In this document: piece after piece, positions 121 through 13,564 of the stretch
Position numbering within the stretch: the stretch's first letter is position 1
Layout of the letters: each line of letters begins with the position of its first letter
IMG/VR virus record: IMGVR_UViG_2703718788_000009
Strand: one strand, 5' to 3'
Length of the DNA: 13,879 bases
Origin: a virus
Lineage: Duplodnaviria; Heunggongvirae; Uroviricota; Caudoviricetes
Made by a program: the position numbers and the translations under genes
The notes under the pieces: generated by a model
What the model was told of the DNA's origin: nothing
What the model saw: only the letters and a program-made list of their open reading frames with translations
The model's database searches: none

Positions 121-121
121 T

Positions 122-307
122 ATGAATACCTACGAAAAGATTTATCAAAAATTAAAAAGTGATAACAATGCTCCCGTCATCAAGGGCGGGGCTTCTTCCT
201 CTGGTGACCTCTCAATCGAAGAGCTTGCGGAGAAATATAATATTGATAAAGAGGCCCTGAAAAGGGCTATTTCATTATCAAAATCTTTAAGACAGGGCGA
301 GGTATAA
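122..307 (+). CDS. hypothetical 61-aa protein immediately upstream of the tape measure gene
   Basis: ORF with 'aaagg' 8 nt upstream of the ATG; its TAA stop is 1 nt before the ATG at 309, suggesting translational coupling. No recognisable motif. Confidence 0.5.
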   Translation: MNTYEKIYQKLKSDNNAPVIKGGASSSGDLSIEELAEKYNIDKEALKRAISLSKSLRQGEV

Positions 308-308
308 A

Positions 309-2438
309 ATGGCAATGAAGGAAGTCGCCAGACTAACAAACGTTATTTACTGGGATTCTGATAAATCCTCCTGGCGAAAAGAAGTTAAACGGCTTGAGGA
401 TTATAAAAAATCCTGGAAGAAAGCCACCGACGATATTGCTAAAGCTGATTTTAAGTCTAATCAGGCTGTGCTCAGAACACAAAGAACACGCGCTAAGGTG
501 GAAGAGCAGATCGCCAGAGCACAGAAGAAACAACGTGCTCAGGCTGTCAGCCGTCTGACCGGAGGCAATAATCCGGAGCTCTCCTCTATGCGCAAGTTCT
601 ATCAGCAGCAAGCCAGAGAAGCCGCCAGACAACAAAAACTGTTAGATCGTAGTGTTGGAGATGTTCAGCACAGAAAAGCACGTGTAGGGGCCAACAGTGC
701 ACGAATCAGCAGCATGTTTGATGGCTCTCTGGTTGCTCAGTTCCAATCCAGAATTCAGAGAGTTAATGCTGATTATGCTAAAGGGGCTATCAACCTGCAG
801 ACCTATAATCAGAAAATGGCCCGACTCAGAGCTGAAATGAAGATGGCATCTAGAGATGCCACCACCTTTCAAGGCAAGCTAGATAAACTGGCAGCAGGTG
901 CGAGCAAGGTGCATAACAATATCGGCAAGCTTAACAGTGCTTTAGGCAAGATAGCCATTGGCCTGACCGCTGCGGGATGGGGTATTCAGAGAGCTGTCAG
1001 CAGTGCTATGAGCGCTCAATCTGACCATAACTCAGCCTATTATGGTTTGCTTGCTCAGAACAAGGATGATAAAGCCAAGACTGACCAACAGATGGCTTTT
1101 ATCGACAGAATCTCTAACGATTATGGGATGGATCAGCGTGAGGCTGAAGGCGGCTTTATGCGCTTTGCTGCAGCCACACCGAACGTAAAAGAGGGTGATA
1201 AACAGGCTCTCTTTGAGGCTATGGCTATTAAAGGTCGCTCAGTGGGTGCTACTGCGGACCAACAGAACAGGGCTATCGTTGCACTAGGGCAGATCTATAG
1301 CAAGGGCGGTCGAGTGTATGCGGAAGAGCTTAAGGGCCAACTTTCTGAAGCCCTGGCAGGCTCTCAGGTAGATTTCACCCGTGCGGCTATCGATGCCGGA
1401 ATCATCAAGAAAGAGGAAGAATTTAATAAAGCCCTTGAAGATGGCAAGATCACCATGGACAAGCTTCTTCCCTCTCTGGTGAAAATTTGGGGTGCTGCAA
1501 AAGAAACTGACGCTTTTGCTAAATCCATGCAGCAGCCAGAGGTGGCACTGCAGAGAATGAGCAACCAGTTTTTTAAACTAAAGCAATCCTTTATGGGTGT
1601 TGTTGATCCAACTGATAACGTTATTACCCTTTCTGAATCCCTGATCTACATCTTCGAAGACTTATCATCAATTTTCAGCGGCTCAGGTGAAGATGCCAAA
1701 TCACTGGGGGTTATGCTGGGTGAGGCAATGGATACAGTTTACACCCGTGCAGTTTGGGCTATTTGGTGGATTAAGAAGATCGCTAAAGAAATCGGTGAGA
1801 TGTTCAATCTGACCGCACAGGATGCAGGAAGTTGGATAGGCACAATTGTTACCGCTATCATGGGCCTGAAGGTTGCTGGAAGCGTGGCAGGCATGGTGGG
1901 CGGCCTTATCTCTATGCTGTGGAAGCTTGGATCAGCGATCAAGGCTTTATTAGTTGGTGGCGGTGTTGGTGATATCAGCACTGGGGGCACACCAGGTAAG
2001 GGCAAACCAGGTAAAGGCGGTTTAATCGGGAAAGTAGGCAGACTGGGAAGGTTTGCAGGTCCGGCTGCAGTTATTGCTACCGGATTCGATATTGCTAATG
2101 GTCTGGATGCATACTGGCAGAATCCTGATAATCAGCGACAGGAAGGAGTTAAACACCCGGAATGGCTAACCAGCATAGTTAATGGTGCTTCTAGCTTCCT
2201 CGGCCTTGATTATCGTCTCGATGCAGGACGCTACATTACCAGACCAACACCGACGGGTGGAATGGCTATTCAGAATGGTGGCTATCAACCAGTTCAGGTA
2301 AATGTAGTTCCACAAGGTGAGATTTCCGGCAAATGGGAGATAACCATTGATGAGGGTGGAATTGCCAGGGTGATCCAGAAGGAAGTCAGCGATCAGTTGG
2401 ATTGGAAAGCCACACAGGAATCTAATCAGCTTTTCTAA
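309..2438 (+). CDS. phage tail tape measure protein (lambda gpH-like)
   Basis: 709-aa ORF with SD 'gaggt'. Charged, Ala/Gln/Lys-rich N-terminal half, two hydrophobic helices (WIGTIVTAIMGLKVAGSVAGMVGGLISMLW), then a Gly-rich segment (GGGVGDISTGGTPGKGKPGKGG). The segment EEFNKALEDGKIT resembles lambda gpH 'EELNKALKDGKIL', recalled from memory and not verified. Confidence 0.75.
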   Translation: MAMKEVARLTNVIYWDSDKSSWRKEVKRLEDYKKSWKKATDDIAKADFKSNQAVLRTQRTRAKVEEQIARAQKKQRAQAVSRLTGGNNPELSSMRKFYQQQAREAARQQKLLDRSVGDVQHRKARVGANSARISSMFDGSLVAQFQSRIQRVNADYAKGAINLQTYNQKMARLRAEMKMASRDATTFQGKLDKLAAGASKVHNNIGKLNSALGKIAIGLTAAGWGIQRAVSSAMSAQSDHNSAYYGLLAQNKDDKAKTDQQMAFIDRISNDYGMDQREAEGGFMRFAAATPNVKEGDKQALFEAMAIKGRSVGATADQQNRAIVALGQIYSKGGRVYAEELKGQLSEALAGSQVDFTRAAIDAGIIKKEEEFNKALEDGKITMDKLLPSLVKIWGAAKETDAFAKSMQQPEVALQRMSNQFFKLKQSFMGVVDPTDNVITLSESLIYIFEDLSSIFSGSGEDAKSLGVMLGEAMDTVYTRAVWAIWWIKKIAKEIGEMFNLTAQDAGSWIGTIVTAIMGLKVAGSVAGMVGGLISMLWKLGSAIKALLVGGGVGDISTGGTPGKGKPGKGGLIGKVGRLGRFAGPAAVIATGFDIANGLDAYWQNPDNQRQEGVKHPEWLTSIVNGASSFLGLDYRLDAGRYITRPTPTGGMAIQNGGYQPVQVNVVPQGEISGKWEITIDEGGIARVIQKEVSDQLDWKATQESNQLF

Positions 2439-2448
2439 TATTGTGATC

Positions 2449-2469
2449 TAAATCAATAAGTTAGCCTAA
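2449..2469. repeat. copy 1 of 20-bp repeat 'aaatcaataagttagcYtaa'
   Basis: Matches 8341..8360 at 19 of 20 positions; both copies lie downstream of the stop of a plus-strand gene. Confidence 0.7.
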
Positions 2470-2485
2470 CCGGATAAACTCCAGG

Positions 2486-2521
2486 CAAGAAAAAAGCCCC
2501 TAAGTGTTAACAAAGGGGCTC
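2486..2521. terminator. intrinsic terminator-like hairpin, strong on the minus strand, weaker on the plus strand
   Basis: Perfect 7-bp stem agcccct (2495..2501) / aggggct (2514..2520) with a 12-nt loop. The minus strand reads a U5 run after the stem; the plus strand is followed by a pyrimidine-rich 'cttctccggtatcctttt'. Confidence 0.5.
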
Positions 2522-2550
2522 TTCTCCGGTATCCTTTTGATGCGGGGCAA

Positions 2551-2598
2551 AACCTGCTAACAAAAATCAACCTCTCGCGAGACTAATGTTAGCAGGTT
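2551..2598. other. perfect 12-bp inverted repeat (aacctgctaaca / tgttagcaggtt) around a 24-nt loop that carries the 'caacctctcgc' motif
   Basis: Direct reverse-complement match within the ORF-free region between the convergent operons. Confidence 0.6.
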
Positions 2599-2939
2599 GC
2601 CGGAAGGTAAGTCAACTCCGGCCTATAAACCTTAAAGCGACTATAAAATTGCCCCGCCAATTGTGATGATCCGACCTTTGAGGCGGGTCCGGTGCCCAGG
2701 GGGTGCAGTGATGCACAAACCAGGCAACGATAAACAGGCTAACAGTGATAGCGGCGCTCAATCAGCGCACTAAATCCTAACCAGTCCGGGAAAGAGGCTG
2801 GCTCTATCGACCGCTCATGCACGGGACAATGCATACCTGATAAAGGATTCTCACAAGGGACCAATCGCGAGAAAAGAAGTGGAAAGGGGCTGATTTGTGG
2901 TGTATCACTACGGCCTCAAAAGAACACTATTGTCTTTTT

Positions 2940-3392
2940 TCAGCCTCTCCCAACATTTGACCAGTATTTGATTGCACCGATCAAATCATCATAGTGGCGC
3001 ATTGCATCATTGAAGCCTTTATAGCTTGCCCATTGTGGTGAAACTTTGTTATTGCTGAATTGCCCACTAATCAGGATAGTCTCCAAAATGTCGGCGTATC
3101 GCTTGCCAATTCGCTTTCTGACGGCCTCAGAGCTCCCACCCTTTACGATTGCATTAATCAGGGCTTTTGTGTGTCTCAGGCTCTCATAGAGCATTGCAGC
3201 GTGGGCAGATTCCATAAAGGAGCGCTTAGGCAGATCACCCCACCCCTCAGAATGGATAGCCGCCAGTGTGGCGTAATTCAGGCCGCTATAGTGTTTCCCG
3301 TCATCCCAGCCAACCGCTACACCTTCCATCTGTGAGAGCTCTTTATGCAGCTTATCCATCATGCGCTTGTCTATGGTGCAACGGACTTTCAT
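2940..3392 (-). CDS. hypothetical protein, possibly virion morphogenesis or head-tail joining
   Basis: 150-aa ORF whose ATG overlaps the upstream gene's stop in an ATGA arrangement (translational coupling). It is the last gene of the minus-strand structural operon. The functional guess rests on context only. Confidence 0.5.
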   Translation of the reverse strand: MKVRCTIDKRMMDKLHKELSQMEGVAVGWDDGKHYSGLNYATLAAIHSEGWGDLPKRSFMESAHAAMLYESLRHTKALINAIVKGGSSEAVRKRIGKRYADILETILISGQFSNNKVSPQWASYKGFNDAMRHYDDLIGAIKYWSNVGRG

Positions 3393-4168
3393 TTTGTAGC
3401 ATCCTTGGCAAACTTGGCCTGCCTTTGCTGTTTCCAGGCGCTATCAGCTGCGTCATAGTTGCCGCCGTTTTCCTCTAACAACGTGTTAAAATCTTTAGTC
3501 TTAGCCGATGGGGTGTTGGTTGAGTTCCCTACGTTGCTATTCTTCTCAGCACTGTTAACAGCACCCTTTTGCTGTGTTTTGTTCACCTTCTTGCTGTTAG
3601 TGAAGACTCCGGCATTTTCGACCATCTTCACCTTGAAGGTGCGGAATTCTTCAAAGGTGCAATCAATAGTGATGCAGTCACCAGAGGAAGAGCTACGCTT
3701 AACTTCACATTTCGTCATGATGAAGTTCTCAAGGAGTCCGGCATCTTCACTTACCAGGCTAACAAGCTGGCGCTTGTCTCTCATTTCCATAAGTGCCTGA
3801 ACAGCGGCGGCAGGGCGCATAGATTCACGGGGATTATCTGGATCAGTGTTCCGGTCAATGTAGTTCTCTTTCCGGATGATATGAGGAGAAGAGGTAACAA
3901 TACCCGTAAAGCTGACAGATTTATCTTTAATGACGGCATGGTCTGACATGGTGGTGCCATCCTCGACCGCATAGCTCGATTTCTCAACAGGGAACGAATA
4001 GCTGACATCAGAGATAGAGTCAAAGAAGATAGCCACGTTATCGGTATAGTTGAAGCCATCCATTATATTTTTGTTTTGTGAATATCCCCCACACATAACA
4101 GTGAATGCAGGAGATCTCGATTCAGCTTGTTTTGCAGCTGTCAGAGCATCACTAGCCATATTAAACAT
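3389..4168 (-). CDS. hypothetical protein, possibly a virion structural component
   Basis: 259-aa ORF. A GGAGG sits 1 nt before the first ATG and about 10 nt before the second ATG (4159), so the true start is probably 4159 (MASDALT...). Ser/Thr/Asn-rich, with a Lys/Asn-rich low-complexity C-terminus. Confidence 0.55.
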   Translation of the reverse strand: MFNMASDALTAAKQAESRSPAFTVMCGGYSQNKNIMDGFNYTDNVAIFFDSISDVSYSFPVEKSSYAVEDGTTMSDHAVIKDKSVSFTGIVTSSPHIIRKENYIDRNTDPDNPRESMRPAAAVQALMEMRDKRQLVSLVSEDAGLLENFIMTKCEVKRSSSSGDCITIDCTFEEFRTFKVKMVENAGVFTNSKKVNKTQQKGAVNSAEKNSNVGNSTNTPSAKTKDFNTLLEENGGNYDAADSAWKQQRQAKFAKDATK

Positions 4169-4264
4169 GCCTCCAAAATGAATCTTTTCGTTGCCCTGCT
4201 TAAAATCTGCAGAAAATACAGGGCAGTTATTCGTTAGAATCGCTTATAGCTCTTCCCGAGAGCG

Positions 4265-4525
4265 TTATTTTGCAAAACGATTATGGGCATTCAGGGCTTT
4301 TTTGCGGTCCTGGGCTTGTTTGCGTGCAATAAAATGTTCGAAAGTCTCGGCCCAGGTGCATTTATTATATTCACGGTATTTATGCATAGCCTGGCGGCTA
4401 ACGTCATAGCAGGCGGAAAATGTGGAGATACGCAGGAATTCCGGCAGATCCTCGTCATCGATATGGATAATATCAAAAGGCACGTCGTCACGGTCGCCGT
4501 ATAAAACAATTTTCATAAAAGACAC
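4265..4525 (-). CDS. hypothetical small acidic protein (about 83 aa from the ATG at 4516)
   Basis: The track start at 4525 is GTG; the ATG at 4516 has SD 'gaggtg' 6 nt upstream. First gene downstream of repeat copy B. Confidence 0.5.
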   Translation of the reverse strand: MSFMKIVLYGDRDDVPFDIIHIDDEDLPEFLRISTFSACYDVSRQAMHKYREYNKCTWAETFEHFIARKQAQDRKKALNAHNRFAK

Positions 4526-4548
4526 CTCAAAAACTTAAGACGGGGATT

Positions 4549-4595
4549 ATGAGTCCTTCCAGGACCTTAGCTAAAGCTAAGCCCTTTGGGTCTGT
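4549..4595. repeat. 47-bp repeat, copy B
   Basis: See copy A (57..103). Lies between the capsid-gene terminator and the next minus-strand gene. Confidence 0.85.
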
Positions 4596-4602
4596 GGATA
4601 AT

Positions 4603-4663
4603 AAAAAAGGGAAGAGGGAAAGACCTATCCCCGATCTCTCACCTCTTCCCTTTGCTTTTATTT
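4603..4663. terminator. bidirectional rho-independent terminator downstream of the capsid gene
   Basis: 9-bp stem gggaagagg (4609..4617) / cctcttccc (4642..4650) with a 24-nt loop; flanked by A6 (4603..4608, a U6 run on the minus strand) and 'tttgcttttattt' (4651..4663). Confidence 0.65.
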
Positions 4664-4679
4664 GGCCTTCGAAGAAGGT

Positions 4680-5729
4680 TTATTTAGCCTTGGCTTTTGC
4701 CAGAGCAGCGGCGGCGGCGTTTTTAACACTCACTTTAACCACAACTTCGGGCATCATGTTCATGAAAGCATAAGAGGATTCAACGAAGATTTCTCGTTTG
4801 GCTCTGGACTCTTCCATATACATGAAAGCTTCACGTGCAGCGCCGTTTGCAAGCTTCAGGTTGCGAGCGCAAGGGCCGAAAAATTGAGTATAAACGCCCA
4901 CCATATCGCCTAACGCATGCGGCTGGAACTGTGGGACCAGATAAGCAGTATTCTCTGGCAGACTATCCATTTGCACCACACGCAGAGCTAAGCCTGGAAT
5001 GCGGAAAGTCGGGAAGCCCGGCAGAATATCCTCAGGGAACATCAGACCTTTATCAGTGATATTCTGATTGCCGAACAACAGCACTTTTCGCAACAGTTCA
5101 TCAGTCTGAATTGCAGCAAAGAGCTCAGCACGGCAGAACAGGGTGAAACCACGCAGAGCGCGAACGACACCACGCTGTTTAACCTTGCTCAGCGCAACCA
5201 GGTCCTGCAGCTGTTTAAGGATATCTTTAGCTAAATCCACTTCTGAGGTGGTTTGCTGTGCGCCCAGCAGTTCGCACACATTCAGTTCTTTACCCTTGGT
5301 GAGGATAATTTTGTTCTCAAAGAGAGCAAGCTGGCGTGCTTCTTCATGGGTCTGGCGTAAGCCTTCACCAAGCTGAATAACACGACGAGCGGTTACAGAC
5401 TCTAAATTCTCTTCGGAATCTTTGCCCGGAACACGGATACCCTGCCAGTCAGAAGGATAAATAGCACTTGATGCGGCAGTGAATGCCATATCACCCGTGC
5501 CCGTTTCACGCTCATCTGCGGTAATGGTAGCCATCTGTTCACCGTAGCGCGGATACTGACCGAAAGCGGTTTGTTTCACCTGGCGAACTTTGTCATATTC
5601 AAATTTAAAGGTATTGCACAGAGCAGTAGTGTTGAAGATATCCATTGCTGAAATAATCTGGTTATCCAGCGGGATGTCTTTAATCAAGCCACACAGATCG
5701 CGGACTTCGAATTCTTTTTTCATCTCCAA
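4680..5729 (-). CDS. major capsid protein (lambda gpE-like)
   Basis: The likely start is the ATG at 5723 with AAGGAGG 6 nt upstream; the track start at 5729 is TTG. The segment SLPENTAYLV and the C-terminal 'REIFVESSYAFMNMMPEVVVKVSV' resemble lambda gpE 'FLPDNTMVLG' and 'REFTMIQSAPLMLLADPDEFVSV', recalled from memory. About 347 aa, preceded by a small beta-rich protein. Confidence 0.7.
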   Translation of the reverse strand: MEMKKEFEVRDLCGLIKDIPLDNQIISAMDIFNTTALCNTFKFEYDKVRQVKQTAFGQYPRYGEQMATITADERETGTGDMAFTAASSAIYPSDWQGIRVPGKDSEENLESVTARRVIQLGEGLRQTHEEARQLALFENKIILTKGKELNVCELLGAQQTTSEVDLAKDILKQLQDLVALSKVKQRGVVRALRGFTLFCRAELFAAIQTDELLRKVLLFGNQNITDKGLMFPEDILPGFPTFRIPGLALRVVQMDSLPENTAYLVPQFQPHALGDMVGVYTQFFGPCARNLKLANGAAREAFMYMEESRAKREIFVESSYAFMNMMPEVVVKVSVKNAAAAALAKAKAK

Positions 5730-5734
5730 CCTCC

Positions 5735-6070
5735 TTATTGTGCAACACGCAAATCGCCATTGCTGGCAGCGATAACAGCGGCTAAGCCTTCTTTATCCAC
5801 GTAGGCCGGATTGATATAACAGCCCTTGTTGGCAACAACGATAAAAGCATCACCAACCTCAGCACGTTCTACAACCAGCAGCGGAGTTTTACCGGTGTGC
5901 GTTGCTTTAACGAAGGTCTCAACCTCGCCAGCCTCAGTCACCACAACAACAGTGCCAGCCGGAATCTCAGCTTTAACTTTGTTTTTAATTTCAACGTCGC
6001 GAATACTAAATTGCTCATCTGCGGCGTATGAAATGATGTGTCCGCGTGTGCGGATAGTCATATCTCTCAT
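5735..6070 (-). CDS. putative head decoration or auxiliary capsid protein (by position)
   Basis: 111-aa ORF whose TAA stop overlaps the capsid gene's SD. Val/Thr/Gly-rich and beta-like. The assignment is positional (lambda D-E order), not from sequence identity. Confidence 0.45.
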   Translation of the reverse strand: MRDMTIRTRGHIISYAADEQFSIRDVEIKNKVKAEIPAGTVVVVTEAGEVETFVKATHTGKTPLLVVERAEVGDAFIVVANKGCYINPAYVDKEGLAAVIAASNGDLRVAQ

Positions 6071-6195
6071 TTGATCACCTGCGATTTAAATTAACTCCCC
6101 TCAAAGAGTTCCGGTATAACCTCTCAAACCACGACAGGCTCGGGCCGAAAAGTTATGCCGGAAATCTAAAGGGAAATTGATACAAGGAGAGGGAG

Positions 6196-6225
6196 ATAGC
6201 CCCGCACCGTCCAAGCGGGGGCTAT
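6196..6225. other. GC-rich stem-loop in the capsid-operon leader
   Basis: atagccccgc / gcgggggctat pairs as a roughly 10-bp stem with one bulge and a 9-nt loop. No U-tract on either strand, so not a classic terminator. Confidence 0.35.
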
Positions 6226-6548
6226 TCCACATGGGGAAACCGACAACAGTCGGATGATAGTTCACAGTATGGGTTACGGTTACTAGAGAGCACTATCACG
6301 AAAGGCACTCCCCCGAATCAGTTCAGGCTGCGGTCACATCAGCGGGGAAATACCTTTCGGGATAGCTACCCACACAGAAAACCCGCAAAAGAAAACTGTG
6401 TGGATAACTAGCCCAATAGGAGAATTAATCGACCACTCAACGATGATCAGGGTAGTGTTATTTATAAGGCGGCACCGCTACCTGGTCGCCTTTACTTTGG
6501 AGGAAAATACGGCAAATCACTTTCACCATTGATTTACGGTATATGTAT

Positions 6549-6577
6549 ATTATATCAGTATTCTCTCAAATTGTCAA
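6549..6577 (-). promoter_or_regulatory. perfect-consensus sigma70 promoter (TTGACA-N17-TATAAT) on the minus strand, directed at the capsid operon
   Basis: The reverse complement of 6549..6577 reads TTGACA atttgagagaatactga TATAAT, with an AT-rich stretch upstream. Predicted start near 6540, about 470 nt before the ATG at 6070. Confidence 0.6.
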
Positions 6578-6841
6578 CACCCTGATTATATAAATTCTAA
6601 TAATTAGCGTAGTAACGGTATTTTCAGACTGCTATCAATCCCATCAATACGTCACCCCCACCCTTTAGATGCATACATCCGACCTACTTTGTAGGCTTGG
6701 CGTACTGCCAAGGTCGAAGCTATGCGACTCATATCTATCACCACTTTATAAAGCTTGATAGATATCTTTTGATCAATATCAATGTTTTCCGGGGATTTAC
6801 CCGGCTATAGTTCGAATCAAGGAAGGGGAGCATTGATAGAG

Positions 6842-6890
6842 ACACCCAAAGGGGTGACTGAAAGTCACCTGGCATAGCCAGTGAAAGCAC
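6842..6890. repeat. 50-bp repeat, copy A (palindromes GGTGAC-N5-GTCACC and CTGGC-N3-GCCAG)
   Basis: About 42 of 49 positions match 12072..12120; lies about 45 bp upstream of the ATG at 6934. Confidence 0.8.
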
Positions 6891-6933
6891 CCAACCGAAC
6901 AAACAAATCAACTTCTCGCAAAAGGTGATAGTT

Positions 6934-7056
6934 ATGGGTATCAAGAACAGTGCCAGCGCATGGCAAAAGGCCAGGTTTCATCACCCACACATTGTTAAGG
7001 CAATTGAGGTGGTTGGAGTGTTAGCCCTGATGTTAGCTCTGTGTGTGGAGGTGTGA
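6934..7056 (+). CDS. small hydrophobic peptide (41 aa), first ORF of a plus-strand module
   Basis: ATG at 6934 with SD 'aaggtga'; MGIKNSASAWQKARFHHPHIVKAIEVVGVLALMLALCVEV, with a C-terminal transmembrane-like helix. A second 26-aa peptide (7058..7138) follows with SD GGAGG. Below the ORF-track threshold. Confidence 0.3.
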   Translation: MGIKNSASAWQKARFHHPHIVKAIEVVGVLALMLALCVEV

Positions 7057-7157
7057 GATGGGCAAAGGAGGCAAAGCATTTTTAATAGGTCTGGCAGTCT
7101 TAGATTTTGTATTAATCATCATTGAGCGGAGTTTATGAACAGCATTGAGAGGAGTTT

Positions 7158-7418
7158 ATGACGGGGGCTAAAGATATCAGGAGATTGAGGGAAGAGCTGA
7201 TAGCTGAAATTAAAGCTAAGGCAAAGCAAATGGAGATAGCCGCACAAATGGATGTAGCGGAACAGATGTACAAGATGGTTGAAGAGGGAACACCACGGCA
7301 GGTTATAGCAAAAACATTTGGTGTGGGGATCGCCACCGTGCACAGAAGGCTGAAAGCCTATGCCGACTACCACAATATCGAGAGAAAGGAGGATGGGAGA
7401 TTTAAGAAGAATAAATAG
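7158..7418 (+). CDS. small DNA-binding protein with a helix-turn-helix motif
   Basis: 86-aa ORF with SD 'gagagg'. The motif TPRQVIAKTFGVGIATVHRRLK looks like an HTH of the resolvase or IS3 OrfA type; the N-terminus looks coiled-coil. Confidence 0.6.
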   Translation: MTGAKDIRRLREELIAEIKAKAKQMEIAAQMDVAEQMYKMVEEGTPRQVIAKTFGVGIATVHRRLKAYADYHNIERKEDGRFKKNK

Positions 7419-7475
7419 TAGGAACAGTCCAACAGGTTATTAACTAAATTCAACTTCTCGCAAAGAGGTACCATT

Positions 7476-8162
7476 ATGTTTAAAGGTCTTGTTGTTACGC
7501 TATTGGCTTGCATTGTATTTGGTCCATGGGTGTTAGTAATTGCTTTACCTATATTGCTGATCATGAGCTTAGGGAATGATATTAAAAAGCTGCAAAAGCT
7601 GCATGCACAATATAAGGAGAATCCCGGCGCGTTCATGGTAAGTCTGGTTATAGTCGCGGGGCTTATTGGATGGGTGTATTTCTCCCTCCCCACAGGAAAT
7701 ACAACTGCAAATGTAGAAGAGGCCGCAGTGGTAGAGGAAAAAGCCAACAAAGGATTCAGATTTATTGTTGGTGTGGATAGCCCAGTATATGGCCCTGAAG
7801 CTGTGGATCCTGCAATGGTGCATGCCTGGTTATGGAACAGAACGGAGAAAGGTAGCTGCAATCAACTAAAAGCGAGCGCCAACATAGAAGAGGAAGGAGA
7901 TACATTTTTCGCATGGTGTAAAGATATCAAAGGCAATGATAGGTGGTTTACCATTACCAATATTGTAGGTGTTTCCCGTTCACTAATGAATCACCCTGAG
8001 GCTAAGAATCCGCTAACAGGTGTCCGATTAAAAGATGGCCCAATATGGATCGATTTATACGGAACACAAATCACTGAGGGCGTGAACAGCGATATCCAGG
8101 ATAAGCTGAAAGACATAAATAATCAGTATGGTGCGATTGTTGAAACCTCTCCTATGAAATAA
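7476..8162 (+). CDS. membrane protein with two N-terminal transmembrane helices and a roughly 150-aa C-terminal domain, possibly superinfection exclusion
   Basis: 228-aa ORF with SD 'agagg'. Hydrophobic segments at about residues 5..30 and 53..70, separated by a Lys-rich loop. Function is a hypothesis. Confidence 0.6.
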   Translation: MFKGLVVTLLACIVFGPWVLVIALPILLIMSLGNDIKKLQKLHAQYKENPGAFMVSLVIVAGLIGWVYFSLPTGNTTANVEEAAVVEEKANKGFRFIVGVDSPVYGPEAVDPAMVHAWLWNRTEKGSCNQLKASANIEEEGDTFFAWCKDIKGNDRWFTITNIVGVSRSLMNHPEAKNPLTGVRLKDGPIWIDLYGTQITEGVNSDIQDKLKDINNQYGAIVETSPMK

Positions 8163-8182
8163 CCACACCTACCCAACCTACC

Positions 8183-8216
8183 AGGGCCACCACTTAGGAT
8201 GGCCCTTTTTATTTAT
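8183..8216 (+). terminator. rho-independent terminator of the 6934..8162 module
   Basis: 7-bp stem agggcca / tggccct with a 10-nt loop, followed by 'ttttatttat', 21 nt after the stop codon. Confidence 0.7.
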
Positions 8217-8220
8217 GTGC

Positions 8221-8280
8221 TATTTAATACCCATTTATCCCCTATTTAATGCCTATTTATTGATTTAATCCGTTTTATGC
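8221..8280. repeat. phased TATTTA(A/T) repeats at roughly 11-bp spacing; possibly bent DNA or an architectural-protein site
   Basis: tatttaatacc / atttatcccc / tatttaatgcc / tatttattgat / ttaatccg / ttttatgcc in succession. Confidence 0.4.
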
Positions 8281-8340
8281 CACAACCGCCCGGTTGACAG
8301 AGTAAGAGAGAGGGTGTAACCCTTTTTCGTAATACTAATA

Positions 8341-8360
8341 AAATCAATAAGTTAGCTTAA
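8341..8360. repeat. copy 2 of 20-bp repeat 'aaatcaataagttagcYtaa'
   Basis: See 2449..2469. Confidence 0.7.
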
Positions 8361-9368
8361 TAAGCCTTTTCTCTATTTTTGTCAAATTTAACATACCCTA
8401 AAAAACTGCAAAATCTGACTGCAAGATTATCTGCAGCTGGATTTCTTACACCTCAATTTGTGGTATCACCCTGACTAGTTTGTGCATAAAATGAACAGTT
8501 TTTAACATTTCCTATTCACCTGGTAACCACACAAAAAGCTAAAAACGAGGCACAGATAATCTTAGAGGCCTGTTTTCTTGTTATCACTATGGGAACGTCG
8601 TAGAAGTGATTTTGATGAAAGATGACCTACCCTATTACACCCCCATTTTTTGTTATCACAATTGCATCCTGTGCGGTATATGGCTGTGTGCTGAAAGCGG
8701 TCTTGGGTGTGGGTGTCAGAAATATCCATTAGCGGTATTAATACCCGTCAGATGTTCGTCTGAGGTGCCAGGCAGGCGCTCCCCCACCTCCCTTTTTTCT
8801 TCTAACAATTCTCAAATATCACACCACTGCCCACCACGTTGCTATTATGTTAATTCTTAAGCTTTGCTGTATGTTGTGCACATTATTTATTCAGGTGCGT
8901 GTACGTAAATTCTGGGCCTCCTTATCATGATTTTTAAATCAGATTTTGTAGTGCGCTTTATTAGTGTAGATAAGATCTATTATGTTAAATGCAATTTTCC
9001 CAACCCTTCAAATCAATGACTTACATGTAAGCATGCACTAACACCCCACACAGCACATTAGACGTGTAGATGTCTATATCCCACATTTTTGATTGTTTTG
9101 TAGTCATTCCCCTGATCATTTAACCAGTATAGTTTGCTATCTGCAGACCACAAAATCGGAATTTACATCTGATTAACATAATCTGTTAGCATGATCACCA
9201 TTACCCACACAACAATAACCCCATGCAAGCCTCTTTAGGCAATTTATCGGCGTGTTGGTGTGAACAGTCTTTCATGTTCTTTATGTATTCATGACTGCAA
9301 GGAATGTATTCATTGGCCTGTGTGGGGGAAGGATGGACTGCCCCAGGGGCCATACTTATGATGCCCGG

Positions 9369-9404
9369 TCAACATAAGTGTTGATAAAATCAAGGGGTGT
9401 TGAT
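9369..9404. promoter_or_regulatory. pair of adjacent inverted repeats (TCAACA-N4-TGTTGA and ATCAA-N6-TTGAT); candidate operator
   Basis: Both have perfect arms; they sit just upstream of the iteron cluster. Confidence 0.4.
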
Positions 9405-9426
9405 CTGCATATTTCCCACACATGAG

Positions 9427-9456
9427 AGGAAATCAGAGCAAAGAGAGAGGAGAGAG
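9427..9456. repeat. polypurine (GA-rich) tract
   Basis: A 30-nt run of almost only A and G on the plus strand. Confidence 0.5.
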
Positions 9457-9465
9457 GTTTGTTAG

Positions 9466-9520
9466 TCAAAATCAAGTCACATTAGAGTCAAATCAAGTCA
9501 AATCAGATGCAATCAATCCC
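9466..9520. repeat. cluster of 'aatcaagtca'-type direct repeats
   Basis: gtcaaaatcaagtca, gtcaaatcaagtca, aatcagatgca, aatcaatccc in tandem. Confidence 0.6.
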
Positions 9521-9521
9521 C

Positions 9522-9586
9522 CACCTGTTGGGATTTCCCACATGTTCAACCATACACAGGAGCTAACCTGTTGGGATTTCCTACAC
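9522..9586. repeat. two copies of 'acctgttgggatttccYaca', 45 bp apart
   Basis: 9522..9541 and 9567..9586 are near-identical. Confidence 0.7.
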
Positions 9587-9639
9587 CTCTTGCACATACC
9601 CCGGAAGATTTTTCCGGTGTGCCATCTTTGCAGGCTCCA

Positions 9640-9807
9640 ACCTGTGAAGAATTTTCACACCTGTAAATCCATACAGCACGGTAAAAACTACCGCACCACC
9701 TGTCAAAATATTTTACTACCCCACCAATAATACGGCCCATACCTGTAAAATATTTTTACTACTACCTGTCAAAATCTTTTACTACTACCTGTAAAAATAT
9801 TTGACAC
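9640..9807. repeat. iteron array with ACCTGT core (part of the candidate replication origin)
   Basis: ACCTGT occurs at 9640, 9659, 9698, 9741, 9764 and 9787, plus 9523 and 9566 in the preceding repeat. The last four sit in units of about 23 bp, 'acctgt(c)aaaatattttactac', three of them directly tandem. Confidence 0.7.
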
Positions 9808-9839
9808 TAATAGATAAAGTAACAGACCACACAATAGAT

Positions 9840-9865
9840 CCCCCCCTAACCCCCCCCCCAGGGGG
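9840..9865. repeat. homopolymer tracts C7-TAA-C10-A-G5, bracketed by GATC sites
   Basis: Read directly: gatcccccccctaacccccccccaggggg, with GATC at 9837..9840 and 9876..9879. Confidence 0.8.
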
Positions 9866-9902
9866 AATGGGGAGGGATCAGAGAGTGGGGAAGGTTTATC
9901 AA

Positions 9903-10027
9903 TATATCAAATTGATATACTTAGCTAGATGTATCAATTAATACACTTAAAGGTGAGCAATGCTTAGCTAGATGTATCAATCCGATACACTTAGAATATT
10001 CTAGATGTATCAATTAATACACTTAAA
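9903..10027. repeat. 17-bp perfect palindrome followed by three direct repeats of about 30 bp
   Basis: Palindrome tatatcaa-a-ttgatata at 9903..9919; repeats 'ctagatgtatcaat..atacactta' at 9920..9951, 9963..9994 and 9999..10027. Confidence 0.75.
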
Positions 10028-10906
10028 TCACGTAACTTATTGTATTTATTAAGAAAAGTCATCTACCTATATATACTACTGATTCGCCTCCGCTCATCAT
10101 TAGTATGGTGTAACTGATTCATGCTTCGCTTACGCTCACATTCATCTACTTACACCCCCTTATCTGAATTGAACATTCCCGTCCAATCCAGCTAAGAGAA
10201 TTGATTGAACATTACCTAACATCCGTTAGCTAACATTCTAATCAATTAACTACTTAAACACTTCCACACCTTCCGGTGGTGCCAAGTAACCTGGCATGGT
10301 GGGAAAAGATTCTGCCGTTTTAGGTAGAATTGATTTCCCACAAATAGTAAGTGTCGGCCCTTCAATGTCACTCTCCTATGAGGGGAGAGATGACGGGCCT
10401 CCTGTGTGGGTGAGTATCGGAGCAGTCTGTGAAGTATGAGCAGGCTGTGAGATACGCTACTGTATATCTGCGTAGAACAGCCTCCGCTGTTTACGCTCTT
10501 TGTGTGGTCCGGCGAATGCGTCAGCATGAGGCCCACATGTGGACCGCTGCCGAAAGCTTGCCAGCGCCGGAAGGAGGCAGCAAAGAGTCTCCCGCGCTCA
10601 TGTGTGGGCGTATACGTAAGATATACATTCATAAATCCAATCCTAGGCCCCTAAATGGCCTTCTGGCTGCATTAACCTGTGTGAGTAGTGCAATTGCATT
10701 ACCTGATGCTTAAATCGCGTTGTAGGGCCTCTCATAGAGAATTTAACTATCAAGATAAAAATTGCAGATCGGTCTATTGACAATCTTATTGCATAAATGC
10801 TATAAGTTATTCTGGTTTTGACACGGTAGGGGCCATTAATAATGCTTACCCCCTTTGCTGTGGACTTGCTTGCACCTATAGCACACCTAAATGATAATAA
10901 TTCTCA

Positions 10907-10935
10907 TTGACAATTGGTTGACAATATGATAAGAT
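10907..10935 (+). promoter_or_regulatory. candidate sigma70 promoter (TTGACA-N17-TAAGAT) upstream of a small ORF
   Basis: Consensus -35 at 10907..10912, a 4-of-6 -10 at 10930..10935, and a second overlapping TTGACA at 10918. Confidence 0.35.
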
Positions 10936-10970
10936 TATAAATAGGGGGAGAAACAGATCCGGAGGTCAAT

Positions 10971-11120
10971 GTGGAAATTACTGATGCAATAGCGATCATC
11001 AACCTGGCTGTACTGTGGTGCGGTGTTGCCTACATAGCCGGAGTAACTGCAATAGACAATCTTGAAGAAAAAATGATAGATAAATACAAAAAGATTGTTG
11101 ACAATTTGACGAATGTTTGA
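10971..11120 (+). CDS. small membrane protein (49 aa, GTG start), possibly holin-like or toxin-like
   Basis: GGAGG 5 nt upstream of the GTG; VEITDAIAIINLAVLWCGVAYIAGVTAIDNLEEKMIDKYKKIVDNLTNV has one transmembrane-like helix and a charged C-terminal tail. Absent from the ORF track. Confidence 0.3.
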   Translation: MEITDAIAIINLAVLWCGVAYIAGVTAIDNLEEKMIDKYKKIVDNLTNV

Positions 11121-11126
11121 TAAAAT
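11098..11126 (+). promoter_or_regulatory. strong sigma70 promoter (TTGACA-N17-TAAAAT) for the leader and Rep operon
   Basis: -35 at 11098..11103, a 17-nt spacer, -10 at 11121..11126. Confidence 0.6.
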
Positions 11127-11176
11127 ATAAAGCATAGGGTAATTCTCAGCATGTGAATTTTCCTTAAACAGACTAG

Positions 11177-11206
11177 CGGGGCTTGTCTTGAGTCCCGTTT
11201 CTTTTT
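11177..11206 (+). terminator. intrinsic terminator or attenuator in the leader between the promoter and the first operon gene
   Basis: Stem cggggc / gtcccg (one G-U pair) with a 9-nt loop, followed by 'tttcttttt'. It lies about 45 nt after the predicted start and 44 nt before the ATG at 11250. Confidence 0.55.
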
Positions 11207-11249
11207 AAACCTACATCGCACAGGCGATGAGCTGACAGGAGATTGAATC

Positions 11250-11459
11250 ATGGCTAAAACCGGACCGATAAGCCAGCTGGTAAACTGGACTACTGACGAA
11301 ATCGTCGAGAACGTGCTTAAAGGTAACTTTCGCAAAACTTCCGTTTATGCATTTATTCGAAAACACAAAGGAGAATATCCACACATTGAAGCGGCAATAG
11401 AAAAATTAAACTTTATTAAACTTGAGCGCCAGCTTGAAAGATATAAACACCTACTTTAA
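11250..11459 (+). CDS. hypothetical small basic protein, possibly a regulator; first gene of the Rep operon
   Basis: 69-aa ORF with SD 'aggag' 8 nt upstream. Confidence 0.55.
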   Translation: MAKTGPISQLVNWTTDEIVENVLKGNFRKTSVYAFIRKHKGEYPHIEAAIEKLNFIKLERQLERYKHLL

Positions 11460-11495
11460 TAAAAGGTAACCGTAACCCGGTAAGAGGTAAACATT

Positions 11496-12410
11496 ATGAA
11501 TATTGAGTCTGTTTTTAATATAACTTTAAATGATGATCCTAGTATCCTTTTGCTGCCAATGCTCATAAATAAATCTGGACTATTAAAAAGAGGCGACGCA
11601 AGGGATATCTATATTTACATGTGGAATACTTACTATCTCCACGCTAAAAAAGAGGCCGCCAAGGTGTTCAGCAAGAAGACTAAAGGAAGAAGCCTCAGCC
11701 AGGATATGAAAAACTCCATCAGAAAAGAGTGTTTTGCTATTAAAGATAAAGATTCCTGTGTGGAGATCTCTTATAAGGATATAGAGGAAAGAATTGGAAT
11801 ACTGCGACCAAATGCAGTAAGGGCAATTAAAAAGCTGGAATCTGAAGGAATTATCACCTGCCTTAAAAAAGGCAATAAGCATAACCCTTATGCATCATGG
11901 CAAATTAATGTCGGAATCTTTGAAATGATGGAAAGAGTAGGGATTGAAAACCTCATTGGGTGGGATCTCTTAAAACCATATTGGAAGAAAGAACAGGAAG
12001 CAGCCGGAAGAGGGGAGGGGGCCAAAGCTCCACAGGAAGCTCCAAAACAAGCCGCACAGCAGCCTGAAGACACACCCGAAGGGGTGACCGTAGGTCACCT
12101 GGCTAAGCCAGCGAAAGAGTCCAAAGTGGTGCAATTCCCTTCTGTGAAAGATAAAGACGTTAGCGTAGAGCACAACTCTTATTCCGAAAGTGTGACAACG
12201 TCACCTGTTAAGGCAAACAAGAAGGAGGCATCTAAAGTGATAGATATTTCTTCTTTTATGGCAGATGAAGATGATACGCAAGATGTGTGGTATACACCTT
12301 CAGAAAATGATTATAGTGGTAGTGGTGGTTATGATCCTTATGGCTATGATGAGGATGAATACAACCCATTTGAAGATGAATATACAAATGATTCCGCTAT
12401 CCCTTATTAA
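11496..12410 (+). CDS. putative replication initiator (winged-helix, lambda-O/RepA-like N-terminal domain) with a long disordered acidic C-terminal tail
   Basis: 304-aa ORF with SD 'agagg'. The segment 'VEISYKDIEERIGILRPNAVRAIKKLESEGIITC' resembles the winged-helix DNA-binding domain of lambda O 'RITDSQLSEITKLPVKRCNEAKLELVRMNII', recalled from memory. The C-terminal 140 aa are low-complexity and end in ...EDEYTNDSAIPY. Confidence 0.55.
   Translation: MNIESVFNITLNDDPSILLLPMLINKSGLLKRGDARDIYIYMWNTYYLHAKKEAAKVFSKKTKGRSLSQDMKNSIRKECFAIKDKDSCVEISYKDIEERIGILRPNAVRAIKKLESEGIITCLKKGNKHNPYASWQINVGIFEMMERVGIENLIGWDLLKPYWKKEQEAAGRGEGAKAPQEAPKQAAQQPEDTPEGVTVGHLAKPAKESKVVQFPSVKDKDVSVEHNSYSESVTTSPVKANKKEASKVIDISSFMADEDDTQDVWYTPSENDYSGSGGYDPYGYDEDEYNPFEDEYTNDSAIPY
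12072..12120. repeat. 50-bp repeat, copy B, embedded in the Rep-like coding sequence
   Basis: Matches 6842..6890; encodes ...TPEGVTVGHLAKPAKE... in the disordered tail. Confidence 0.8.
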
Positions 12411-12498
12411 TACCCCCAAATAAACTAAATAAACTAAACATAGAATTACTAGAACTAGATTGATTGCCCTGATCTTTTAAACGTTCGGAGAATTAATC

Positions 12499-12987
12499 AT
12501 GTTCAAATCTGATCTTTCTGATTCCCAATTTGAAAAACTGGTAGCACTGCAGAAATATCTCCCCAGTGATGATCAACCAACACGACAGGCTAAACACTTA
12601 TTAGTCGAGGGCTTTACCCCTGAATTCGTGGCGGAATACACAGGCGTTAAACTTGAGAAAGTCCAAAAACTATATAATGAGTCCTGGAATCCACGGTGTC
12701 GAGTTCCCCTCAGTGTCTACAACGAAATAGACAGAGATAGAAATGTCTTCGAAGATCGCCGCCGCAAATCTCTTTTAATGTGGAATTGTGGGATGAATAT
12801 TGAAGAGATAGCAAAAGAATTAAAAGTAACCTGCTTTCATATCTGGGGCTTGTTGAGTGAAATCCTGCCACGTAAGGAGCTTAATCAACGTTTGCCTAAG
12901 CCCGGCAGTCGTGCTTATCGCGAATTTATATTCATCTACCGCCGCCATAGCAATAAAGTCCGGAAAGCAATGGCCCAGAAAGCCTAA
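12499..12987 (+). CDS. DNA-binding protein with two predicted helix-turn-helix motifs (regulator or small-terminase-like; unresolved)
   Basis: 162-aa ORF with SD 'ggag'. HTH-like segments FTPEFVAEYTGVKLEKVQKL and MNIEEIAKELKVTCFHIWGLL; basic C-terminus. Confidence 0.55.
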   Translation: MFKSDLSDSQFEKLVALQKYLPSDDQPTRQAKHLLVEGFTPEFVAEYTGVKLEKVQKLYNESWNPRCRVPLSVYNEIDRDRNVFEDRRRKSLLMWNCGMNIEEIAKELKVTCFHIWGLLSEILPRKELNQRLPKPGSRAYREFIFIYRRHSNKVRKAMAQKA

Positions 12988-13060
12988 GTTTTATCTCTTC
13001 GATTTATTTATTTTCGACTCACTTTAACCCCTTCCGGGGCTCTAATTTAAGGAATTCCAA

Positions 13061-13504
13061 ATGTCTCAAATCGCTAAATTACTATCCCAGGTTATCAAAG
13101 CTTTCGACGCTGAAGATTCAAAAGTTCGCCAGGATCTTTTAGATGGCAAGTTTACCAACACCCTGGCATTTACCCGTGACAAAGAGCACTTCTTAAAACA
13201 CAGACACCACGCTTTTGCTGAATGCAAGTCCGCTAATGGTGATGTTTTCTATGTCGATTTGGTGGTTATGGCATGTAGGCTGTGGATGATTCAGGACCTT
13301 ATGCGCCAACACGGTGATGATCCTCTTATCAGCATGTGGAACAGCGCCCAGGATGGCTTTGTGATTGCTGCCTTATCCAAATCAATGATTGAGGCAGAAG
13401 GGGCAAGCCTTCAGAACATGGCAGATCTCTTTGAAATAAGCGTAGGAATGATGCAGACCATGCTCCAAGCTGTCAAACCTCTCAAACTGGTTAATCTTGA
13501 TTAA
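13061..13504 (+). CDS. hypothetical protein (147 aa), probably alpha-helical
   Basis: ORF with SD 'aagga' 7 nt upstream; no recognisable motif. Confidence 0.5.
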   Translation: MSQIAKLLSQVIKAFDAEDSKVRQDLLDGKFTNTLAFTRDKEHFLKHRHHAFAECKSANGDVFYVDLVVMACRLWMIQDLMRQHGDDPLISMWNSAQDGFVIAALSKSMIEAEGASLQNMADLFEISVGMMQTMLQAVKPLKLVNLD

Positions 13505-13564
13505 GCTATTGATAAATAAGCACTCCCCATTTTTTGGGGGGTGCATCAATGAGAGGATATGCCT

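What the first reader, a model, noticed from the sequence alone, without database searches (positions are those of the whole stretch)
6934..8162. Small-peptide, HTH and 2-TM membrane-protein module: candidate superinfection-exclusion or abortive-infection system
The module encodes two translationally coupled short hydrophobic peptides (41 and 26 aa, both starting MG.K), an 86-aa HTH protein and a 228-aa protein with two N-terminal transmembrane helices and a soluble C-terminal domain predicted to face the periplasm. It ends in a clean terminator. It is unrelated to virion or replication functions and sits where accessory cargo is expected. No component resembles a family I can name.
Basis: inference. 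Interest (0 to 1): 0.55.

Follow-up and report, generated by a model that had tools for sequence, protein, structure and literature searches.

The report
Envelope-protein cargo slot, satellite plasmid operon
The four small genes are real and form one operon on a 13.9-kb E. coli plasmid that looks like a phage satellite, but only the last gene is swappable cargo; it encodes a membrane-anchored periplasmic protein of a tiny uncharacterised family that may block phage entry, which is unproven.

Summary
Window 6934-8162 carries four same-strand ORFs: pep1 (40 aa, not 41), pep2 (26 aa), an 86-aa HTH and a 228-aa 2-TM protein, closed by a -15 kcal/mol terminator.

The window is a complete circular 13,858-bp element. 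It has a Rep gene, iterons, capsid and tail genes, but no terminase or portal. It belongs to a rare family of E. coli/Shigella satellite-like plasmids.

Across 30 family loci, pep1, pep2 and the HTH are backbone genes under purifying selection (pN/pS 0.1-0.4). The HTH is a Hin/resolvase-type domain (HTH_7).

Only the fourth gene is cargo. It lies between an invariant 15-nt leader box and a conserved terminator. The slot holds three allele kinds, all envelope proteins: 2-TM plus periplasmic domain, Sec-secreted with the same core domain, and polytopic. In the window's kind, the periplasmic domain has been swapped behind a constant anchor.

Superinfection exclusion is the best reading of the cargo gene (about 0.4). 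A four-gene Abi system is unlikely. Nothing has been tested experimentally.

The parts
6731..6765 (.). Perfect 10-nt inverted repeat ATATCTATCA-N15-TGATAGATAT. Candidate operator of the rightward operon.
   Evidence: chance expectation 0.01. The arms are conserved and the spacer varies across the family. TGATAG/CTATCA hexamers cluster in 6600-6950: 5 of 19 in the window, P about 9e-5.
6755..6782 (+). Best but weak sigma70-like promoter candidate, TTGATA-16-TATCAA, overlapping the right arm of the repeat.
   Evidence: 9 of 12 matches, lacking the final T of the -10. The standard scan does not call it and it is only partly conserved. Inference only.
6908..6922 (+). Leader box 1, TCAACTTCTCGCAAA, 11 nt upstream of the pep1 ATG.
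   Evidence: Two exact copies in the window. Invariant at both positions in all 28 loci checked.
6934..7056 (+). pep1: 40-aa tail-anchored membrane peptide with a basic His-rich N-terminus and a C-terminal TM. Backbone gene.
   Evidence: The exact sequence is in public collections as 'hypothetical protein'.
7058..7138 (+). pep2: 26-aa single-TM peptide, 1 nt after the pep1 stop. Backbone gene, frameshifted in 6 of 28 relatives.
7158..7418 (+). 86-aa protein with an N-terminal helical region and a C-terminal Hin/resolvase-type HTH. Backbone gene and likely the element's regulator.
   Evidence: Pfam HTH_7 above cut-off. Hin DNA-binding domain E 3.5e-4. Relatives are at least 86% identical and found only in this family.
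7450..7464 (+). Leader box 2, TCAACTTCTCGCAAA. Left boundary of the cassette slot.
   Evidence: The sequence is conserved up to the ATG whichever gene follows.
7476..7709 (+). Cassette gene, residues 1-78: two-helix inner-membrane anchor. This is the constant part of allele (a).
   Evidence: It is 94-99% identical to L005 and L009 at pS 0.09, while the rest of the gene is saturated.
7710..8162 (+). Cassette gene, residues 79-228: exchangeable periplasmic domain. Core motif HAW..N..C(N/D)..(A/F)(W/F)CKD..(G/D)N(D/E)R(W/F) with two invariant Cys. Cystatin/PepSY-like alpha+beta fold.
8183..8215 (+). Intrinsic terminator (hairpin 8183-8206 plus T tract). Right boundary of the cassette slot.
   Evidence: An equivalent GGGGGCC-ATCA-CGGCCCC terminator follows every allele.

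Best explanation
Region 6934-8162 is one operon of a circular, plasmid-borne, phage-satellite-like element.

Genes 1-3 are backbone. They are two tiny membrane peptides and a Hin-type HTH protein, chained by a 1-nt and a 19-nt gap. The HTH probably binds the TGATAG/CTATCA sites clustered upstream, including a perfect inverted repeat over the best promoter candidate. That would make it an autoregulator of the operon (inferred).

Gene 4 occupies a cassette slot. The slot is bounded by an invariant 15-nt leader box and a conserved terminator, and recombination between elements swaps the gene. The window's allele inserts into the inner membrane through two helices (N-out/C-out). It exposes a roughly 150-aa, probably disulfide-bonded, cystatin/PepSY-like binding domain in the periplasm. 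This domain is itself exchanged as a unit behind the constant anchor.

The inferred function is superinfection exclusion. The protein would be made while the element is carried. It would bind either part of an incoming phage's or rival satellite's DNA-delivery apparatus (tape measure or tail tip) or an inner-membrane entry factor, and so block genome entry without killing the cell.

What is shown: the anatomy, the conservation, the swapping and the envelope targeting. What is inferred: the timing of expression, the binding target and the exclusion phenotype.
For: - The ORFs, their coupling and the terminator are real.
- Backbone versus cargo: pep1, pep2 and the HTH are in all loci under purifying selection.
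- The slot holds three allele kinds between conserved flanks.
- All alleles are envelope proteins: 2-TM plus domain; Sec signal peptide plus homologous core (BLASTP 7e-5); polytopic.
- There is a sharp mosaic boundary at about residue 79. pS is 0.09 in the anchor and 0.75-0.99 in the domain, with strong purifying selection within each subtype, ratio 0.03-0.10.
- There is no enzyme-like fold, only inhibitor or scaffold-type alpha+beta rolls.
- Only the cassette gene is shared with the unrelated 97-kb phage contig. There it sits among signal-peptide and TM genes beside the tail-fibre gene.
- Co-transcription with the regulator and absence of an own promoter resemble carrier-state genes such as lambda rexAB downstream of cI (general knowledge).
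- Characterised exclusion proteins such as P22 SieA are likewise small inner-membrane proteins with several unrelated sequence types (PMC10883804).
- The HTH is Hin-like and candidate sites cluster upstream.
Against: - No similarity to any characterised exclusion or defence protein. Pfam, PHROGs, NCBIfam and PADLOC are empty. The SieA motif is absent. BFVD gives nothing.
- No convincing promoter was found, so the time of expression is unknown.
- Allele (c) has little periplasmic mass, so 'periplasmic binder' does not cover all alleles.
- The roles of pep1 and pep2 are unexplained.
- Satellites also carry envelope-active genes aimed at their helper.
- There are no experimental data.
Confidence: 0.4

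Rival explanations
1. Helper-directed life-cycle function. The membrane peptides and/or the cassette protein act after helper infection. They might alter lysis timing, as the small membrane protein LidI of Vibrio PLE satellites does (recalled from memory), or otherwise modify the envelope for satellite release or entry.
For: pep1 and pep2 are conserved backbone genes of a satellite-like element that has no lysis genes of its own. No sigma70 promoter is evident, so the operon could depend on an activator. The cassette homologue also occurs in a lytic-looking 97-kb phage contig, followed by two small TM ORFs.
Against: Swapping between unrelated envelope proteins, including a soluble secreted one, is hard to square with one fixed life-cycle step. 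There is no holin, endolysin or spanin signature. A 228-aa protein with a large periplasmic domain is not holin-like.
Confidence: 0.15
2. Phage-unrelated host benefit or immunity. The periplasmic domain would be an inhibitor or immunity protein against a periplasm-acting toxin (colicin-like, T6SS or CDI) or a protease, carried as lysogenic-conversion cargo.
For: Membrane-anchored or secreted periplasmic domain with conserved Cys and a cystatin/PepSY/latexin-like inhibitor fold. Allele diversity with domain swapping is also typical of immunity genes. From memory, colicin M immunity protein Cmi is likewise an N-terminally anchored periplasmic alpha+beta protein with a disulfide.
Confidence: 0.12
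3. One reading: the four genes form one abortive-infection or toxin-based defence system. The hydrophobic peptides would be membrane-depolarising effectors, the HTH their regulator and the 2-TM protein a sensor.
For: Two short hydrophobic peptides resemble type I toxins in size and composition. The genes are tightly coupled. Satellites commonly carry defence cargo (PMC13586616 abstract).
Against: The genes are not co-inherited as a unit: the fourth gene swaps freely while the first three stay. No PADLOC, Pfam or NCBIfam match to toxin peptides, and no Rfam antitoxin RNA. No antisense promoter or terminator pair was found. pep2 is frameshifted in 6 elements without loss of the rest.
Confidence: 0.1
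4. Plasmid-maintenance (addiction) module. pep1 and pep2 would be toxic membrane peptides held in check by the HTH protein through transcriptional autoregulation, stabilising a low-copy satellite plasmid. The cassette would be unrelated cargo riding on the same transcript.
For: No recognisable partition or toxin-antitoxin genes exist elsewhere on the element. The three genes are universally conserved and coupled. A decayed copy inside an IncFII plasmid has lost an intact HTH.
Against: The architecture matches no described toxin-antitoxin type. An HTH protein neutralising a TM peptide has no precedent I can cite. No family match was found.
Confidence: 0.08

Closest known systems
P22 SieA (and HK97 gp15, TP-J34 Ltp): prophage-encoded blocks to DNA injection
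   Same: A small protein expressed from a resident mobile element and located in the inner membrane. Extant alleles fall into several barely related sequence types. It acts, or is proposed to act, on the trans-periplasmic DNA-delivery conduit or the tape measure (PMC10883804).
   Different: No sequence relationship. The SieA motif FxRYPxEAxxFNK is absent. This protein has 2 TM plus a 150-aa periplasmic domain, whereas SieA has 3 TM in 162-164 aa. It sits on a satellite-like plasmid, not a prophage. No exclusion phenotype has been shown.
[quoted passage not shown]
   Same: A fixed slot with conserved flanks where unrelated cargo genes are exchanged between related elements, ending in its own terminator. 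The concept is described in PMC13586616 and PMC3594210 (abstracts seen).
   Different: The cargo is a single small envelope protein rather than a recognisable cytoplasmic defence system. No own promoter was found, so it rides on the regulator's transcript. The left boundary is an invariant 15-nt leader box that is duplicated in front of pep1. I know of no counterpart to that box.
Hin / serine-recombinase C-terminal DNA-binding domain (Pfam HTH_7)
   Same: The HTH of the 86-aa protein scores above the Pfam cut-off and matches the Hin DNA-binding domain (1HCR) at E 3.5e-4. The candidate sites contain TTGATA, the core of the hixL half-site as I recall it (from memory).
   Different: There is no recombinase catalytic domain. 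It is a stand-alone 86-aa protein with an N-terminal helical region. A regulator role is inferred, not shown.
lambda cI-rexA-rexB and similar carrier-state operons
   Same: Cargo co-transcribed downstream of the element's DNA-binding regulator and closed by a terminator (general knowledge; anatomy).
   Different: RexAB is an abortive-infection pair with a cytoplasmic sensor. Here the cargo faces the periplasm, and the regulator is preceded by two micro-membrane-protein genes.

Membership tests
Pfam HTH_7 (resolvase/Hin-type helix-turn-helix) | Profile score above the curated gathering threshold | tested here: met
   27.5 bits against a cut-off of 23.8, E 3.4e-6, residues 30-65. Hin DNA-binding domain E 3.5e-4.
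Serine recombinase / DNA invertase | N-terminal catalytic resolvase domain joined to the HTH | tested here: not met
   The protein is only 86 aa and has no resolvase-domain hit. No recombinase gene was found anywhere on the element.
P22 SieA-type superinfection exclusion proteins | Sequence similarity including the motif FxRYPxEAxxFNK, with three or four TM helices (PMC10883804) | tested here: not met
   The motif is absent from all three cassette allele kinds. The window's allele has two hydrophobic segments. No Pfam or PHROG hit.
Superinfection exclusion (functional class) | Expression from the resident element blocks adsorption or DNA entry of incoming phage without cell death | not testable with these tools
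   Needs plating, adsorption and DNA-entry assays.
Known anti-phage defence systems (PADLOC-DB v2) | HMM match of a component to a catalogued system | tested here: not met
   Only sub-threshold noise: best 0.043 for the 228-aa protein, and 4e-4 for a generic HTH stretch.
Type I toxin peptides (Hok, Ldr, TisB, Ibs, ShoB and similar) with antisense RNA | Family match of the peptide, or of an antitoxin RNA on the opposite strand | tested here: not met
   No Pfam or NCBIfam hit for pep1 or pep2. No Rfam hit in the region at E up to 1. No antisense promoter was found.
Accessory-gene hotspot / moron | Different, unrelated genes at the same position between conserved flanks in related elements | tested here: met
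   Three allele kinds plus domain-swapped subtypes in 30 loci. The flanks are invariant.
Accessory-gene hotspot / moron | Independent transcription unit with its own promoter and terminator | tested here: inconclusive
   The terminator is present. No sigma70-like promoter lies between the HTH stop and the cassette ATG.
Holin / lysis proteins | Small TM protein with a charged C-terminal tail, next to an endolysin | tested here: not met
   The 228-aa protein has a 150-aa folded extracytoplasmic domain. There is no endolysin on the element.
Phage satellite (context of the module) | Lacks essential virion or packaging genes and depends on a helper phage | tested here: inconclusive
   No terminase, portal or protease was detectable although MCP, TMP, Dit-like and tail-completion genes are present. 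Helper dependence and packaging cannot be tested here.

The most novel reading that the evidence does not exclude
The operon is the immunity and exclusion region of a previously undescribed class of plasmid-borne tailed-phage satellites. A constant two-helix anchor carries interchangeable periplasmic 'specificity' domains that recognise the tape-measure or tail-tip proteins of particular helpers or rival satellites. The two micro-membrane proteins and the Hin-like HTH would couple events at the membrane to the element's transcription switch. The invariant 15-nt leader box, present in front of both pep1 and the cassette, would be a shared post-transcriptional control site.
Probability: 0.15. 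Interest if true: 0.75.

Novelty: new variant of a known kind. Interest (0 to 1): 0.5.

Why it matters
If the cargo gene is an entry-exclusion determinant, it would define a new protein family. Only a handful of relatives were found among about 1.8 billion representative proteins. It would also show that exclusion specificity can be re-programmed by swapping a periplasmic domain on a fixed membrane anchor.

The carrier matters as well. The family resembles a plasmid-resident satellite of tailed phages that encodes its own capsid and tail parts. A 2025 review states that only one plasmid satellite, of an inovirus, had been shown (PMC12282955). The operon is the obvious place to start dissecting how such an element regulates itself and competes with other phages. 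The practical value is modest: about 0.1% of complete E. coli genomes carry the family.

Tried and rejected
- Megablast of the whole window against GenBank phages gave nothing.
- tblastn of the MCP, the HTH and all three cassette kinds against phages gave nothing.
- Pfam, PHROGs, NCBIfam and PADLOC gave nothing for pep1, pep2 or the cassette alleles.
- The exhaustive profile search returned one 1959-aa repeat protein (P0007, 15 stretches). I rejected it as a repeat-driven match to a C...W.KD..GN strand motif, not a relative.
- Full-length AF2 model: pLDDT 54.6, unusable.
- Homology between the TM anchors of alleles (a) and (c), suggested by a shared GPW motif, is not significant (E 0.075).
- A lipoprotein reading of MFKGLVVTLLAC was rejected. 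The -2 residue is atypical, hydrophobic sequence continues after the Cys, and the phage homologue lacks a basic n-region (reading).
- The box as a helper-phage promoter or widespread motif: 106 single hits in IMG/VR, which is chance level.
- The box as an antisense target: no complementary 9-mer or longer in the window.
- Box-SD hairpins are no more stable than shuffles.
- tRNA-like TTCGAATC at 6811: no tRNA found.
- My earlier conclusion that pep2 is replaced in the divergent lineages was wrong and was corrected. Those lineages carry an extra 35-aa ORF, and pep2 follows it.
- Searches for HTH relatives in IMG/VR and GTDB genomes found none. JGI metagenomes gave two more members of the same family.
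- Literature searches found no description of these plasmids.

Full report
**What is there**

- pep1: 6934-7056.
- pep2: 7058-7138, 26 aa. Its ATG lies one base after the pep1 stop.
- HTH: 7158-7418, 86 aa, 19 nt after pep2.
- 228-aa ORF: 7476-8162.

The region ends in a hairpin at 8183-8206 (-15.1 kcal/mol, z -2.97) followed by a T-run. The simple terminator scan missed it, probably because of its interrupted stem.

Hydropathy gives one hydrophobic segment in each peptide and two in the 228-aa protein (about residues 5-31 and 53-70). The connecting loop has net charge +2 and the following region is acidic. This fits N-out/C-out topology.

**Context**

The window is a complete circle. Its ends overlap by 21 identical bases, giving 13,858 bp. 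It is 90-94% identical, in pieces, to circular 13.2-13.7-kb E. coli 'plasmids'.

It encodes:
- an O-like winged-helix Rep with iterons;
- a tape measure protein;
- a Dit-like protein;
- a tail-completion protein;
- a major capsid protein.

There is no terminase, portal or protease, and no ORF large enough to be one. It therefore looks like a plasmid-resident phage satellite.

The family is rare. It is in 7 of 5426 complete E. coli genomes, always on plasmids, but recurs in a few hundred assemblies. I found no description of it in the literature. A 2025 review says only one plasmid satellite, of an inovirus, had been demonstrated.

**Core versus cargo**

I extracted the module from 30 family loci.

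pep1 is present in all of them. At synonymous divergence of about 0.5 its pN/pS is 0.16-0.39, the same range as the HTH.

pep2 is also conserved, including in the most divergent lineages. There an extra 35-aa acidic ORF lies between pep1 and pep2, and pep2 overlaps the HTH start by 8 nt. Its pN/pS is 0.12-0.33. Homopolymer frameshifts disrupt it in six loci, from two independent events. All six carry the secreted cassette allele.

The HTH is at least 86% identical throughout. I found no relative outside the family in the 5.8-billion-protein index, IMG/VR or GTDB genomes. JGI metagenomes gave only two further family members.

So the first three genes are backbone, not cargo.

**The cassette slot**

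The fourth position is different. The sequence is invariant up to the ATG, including the 15-nt box TCAACTTCTCGCAAA. It is conserved again from the terminator onward. Between these flanks the gene differs.

| Allele | Size | Description | Abundance |
|---|---|---|---|
| (a) | 225-239 aa | Two-helix anchor plus periplasmic domain; the window's kind | P0001 cluster has 9 members |
| (b) | 195 aa | Cleavable Sec signal peptide plus the same core domain (BLASTP 7e-5) | Commonest; clusters of 164, 41 and 21 members |
| (c) | 172-179 aa | Polytopic membrane protein with a basic Gly-rich tail | 106 members |

Within kind (a), residues 1-78 are 94-99% identical between the window and L005 or L009, with pS 0.09. 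The periplasmic part is only 42-46% identical, with saturated pS of 0.75-0.99. Within each subtype the ratio is 0.03-0.10. The periplasmic domain has therefore been replaced as a unit behind a constant anchor, and each version is functional.

**What the cargo protein is**

There is no hit in Pfam, PHROGs, NCBIfam or PADLOC.

An exhaustive profile search of 1.84 billion representatives found only the family itself, plus:
- two proteins of 257-260 aa from one phage lineage;
- a 222-aa protein on a 2-kb contig;
- a repeat protein that I discount.

The phage homologue P0004 lies on a 97-kb contig otherwise unrelated to the element. Upstream are a 405-aa signal-peptide coiled-coil protein and a 182-aa signal-peptide protein. 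Downstream are two small TM ORFs and then a 1932-aa tail-fibre-like gene. Known receptor-masking and injection-blocking genes often sit in this kind of neighbourhood (general knowledge).

**Regulation**

The HTH is a Hin/resolvase-type domain without a catalytic domain.

Upstream of pep1, TGATAG/CTATCA hexamers are strongly clustered (5 of 19 in the window, P about 9e-5). They include a perfect 10-nt inverted repeat at 6731-6765. Its arms are conserved and its spacer is not. It overlaps the best, though weak, promoter candidate. I infer autoregulation by the HTH.

No promoter separates the HTH from the cassette, so the cargo rides on the regulator's transcript.

The 15-nt box occurs exactly twice, before pep1 and before the cassette. 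It is invariant in all loci. Its CUUCU can pair with the Shine-Dalgarno sequence, but the hairpins are no better than shuffles. I found no complementary partner. Its role is unexplained.

**Mechanism and rivals**

The best-supported reading is that the cargo gene encodes an inner-membrane-anchored periplasmic binding protein that blocks genome entry of incoming phages or sibling satellites.

This fits:
- the envelope location of every allele;
- the swap of the exposed domain;
- the tail-fibre-side location of the phage homologue;
- the precedent of P22 SieA, HK97 gp15 and Ltp.

It remains an inference (about 0.4).

A four-gene Abi or toxin system is unlikely (about 0.1). The genes are not inherited together, and nothing matches known toxins, antitoxin RNAs or defence systems.

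Not excluded:
- a helper-directed role, for example lysis timing;
- a phage-unrelated periplasmic immunity or inhibitor role;
- an addiction role for pep1, pep2 and the HTH.

**Verdict**

The feature is a new variant of a known kind: an accessory-gene slot on a mobile element, whose cargo is a novel envelope-protein family. It sits in the core regulatory operon of what appears to be an undescribed satellite plasmid. Interest is moderate (0.5). Most of the upside lies in the carrier element and in the domain-swap architecture.

Noticed in passing
window 1-13879 (whole): The window is a complete circular element with a 21-nt terminal overlap, true length 13,858 bp. It has Rep and iterons plus major capsid, tape measure, Dit-like and tail-completion genes, but no terminase, portal or protease. 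It looks like an undescribed plasmid-borne satellite of a tailed phage. The best GenBank-phage hits for the TMP are rV5-like myophages at only 24% identity. Family members carry 'MAG Caudoviricetes' accessions.
   Followed up: partly
window 6075-6577, minus strand: A perfect sigma70 promoter (TTGACA-17-TATAAT with upstream TG, 6577..6549) points leftward at the capsid operon. It is followed by a conserved leader of about 470 nt. RNAalifold gives 87 pairs, 8 with compensatory changes, and several G-U pairs that exist only on the minus-strand RNA. No Rfam family matches. It may be a regulatory leader RNA controlling structural-gene expression.
   Followed up: partly
window 6908-6922 and 7450-7464: The 15-nt box TCAACTTCTCGCAAA is invariant, duplicated before pep1 and before the cassette gene in every family member. 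Its function is unknown.
   Followed up: partly
window 8163-11250: About 3 kb with almost no credible ORFs but dense repeats. These are phased CTATTTA-type repeats at 8215-8270, ACCTGT(C/A)AAAATATTTTACTACT iterons around 9690-9800, three copies of CTTAGCTAGATGTATCAATTAATACACTTA at 9920-10030, and three TTGACAAT-containing promoter-like sites at 10770-11110. These are probably origin, partition or packaging sites. An unannotated 84-aa ORF at 8606-8860 is 88-96% conserved in relatives.
   Followed up: no
window 11496-12410 and 309-2438, compared with L001-L009 and L131-L134: Rep is by far the most variable backbone gene (29-88% identity, or no match). The tape measure falls into two types (about 66% versus 85-100%). 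Capsid and tail-completion proteins stay at 94% or more in nearly all the elements compared. This suggests replicon swapping and diversification of the TMP.
   Followed up: no
L004 (GCA_028597965.1 JAQRGU010000003.1, 94.6 kb): A decayed copy of the element lies inside an IncFII plasmid between IS elements. Its HTH is frameshifted (82 aa), its cassette truncated (157 aa) and its TMP shortened. NZ_CP043822.1 (39.6 kb) appears to be a trimer of the element.
   Followed up: no
L131-L135, between pep1 and pep2: The divergent lineages carry an extra 35-aa strongly acidic helical ORF (MSQAEMIIKAEELLERLQKAMDDAWNLIEELHEED) between pep1 and pep2. In these lineages pep2 overlaps the HTH start codon.
   Followed up: partly
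L003 6585-10118 (97-kb phage contig, Logan ERR14044746): A cluster of envelope-targeted genes surrounds the cassette homologue. It contains a 405-aa signal-peptide coiled-coil protein with a YadA-anchor-like C-terminus, a 182-aa secreted protein and two small TM ORFs, next to a 1932-aa tail-fibre-like gene. The contig has no close relative in GenBank phages apart from a 180-bp T5-like stretch.
   Followed up: no
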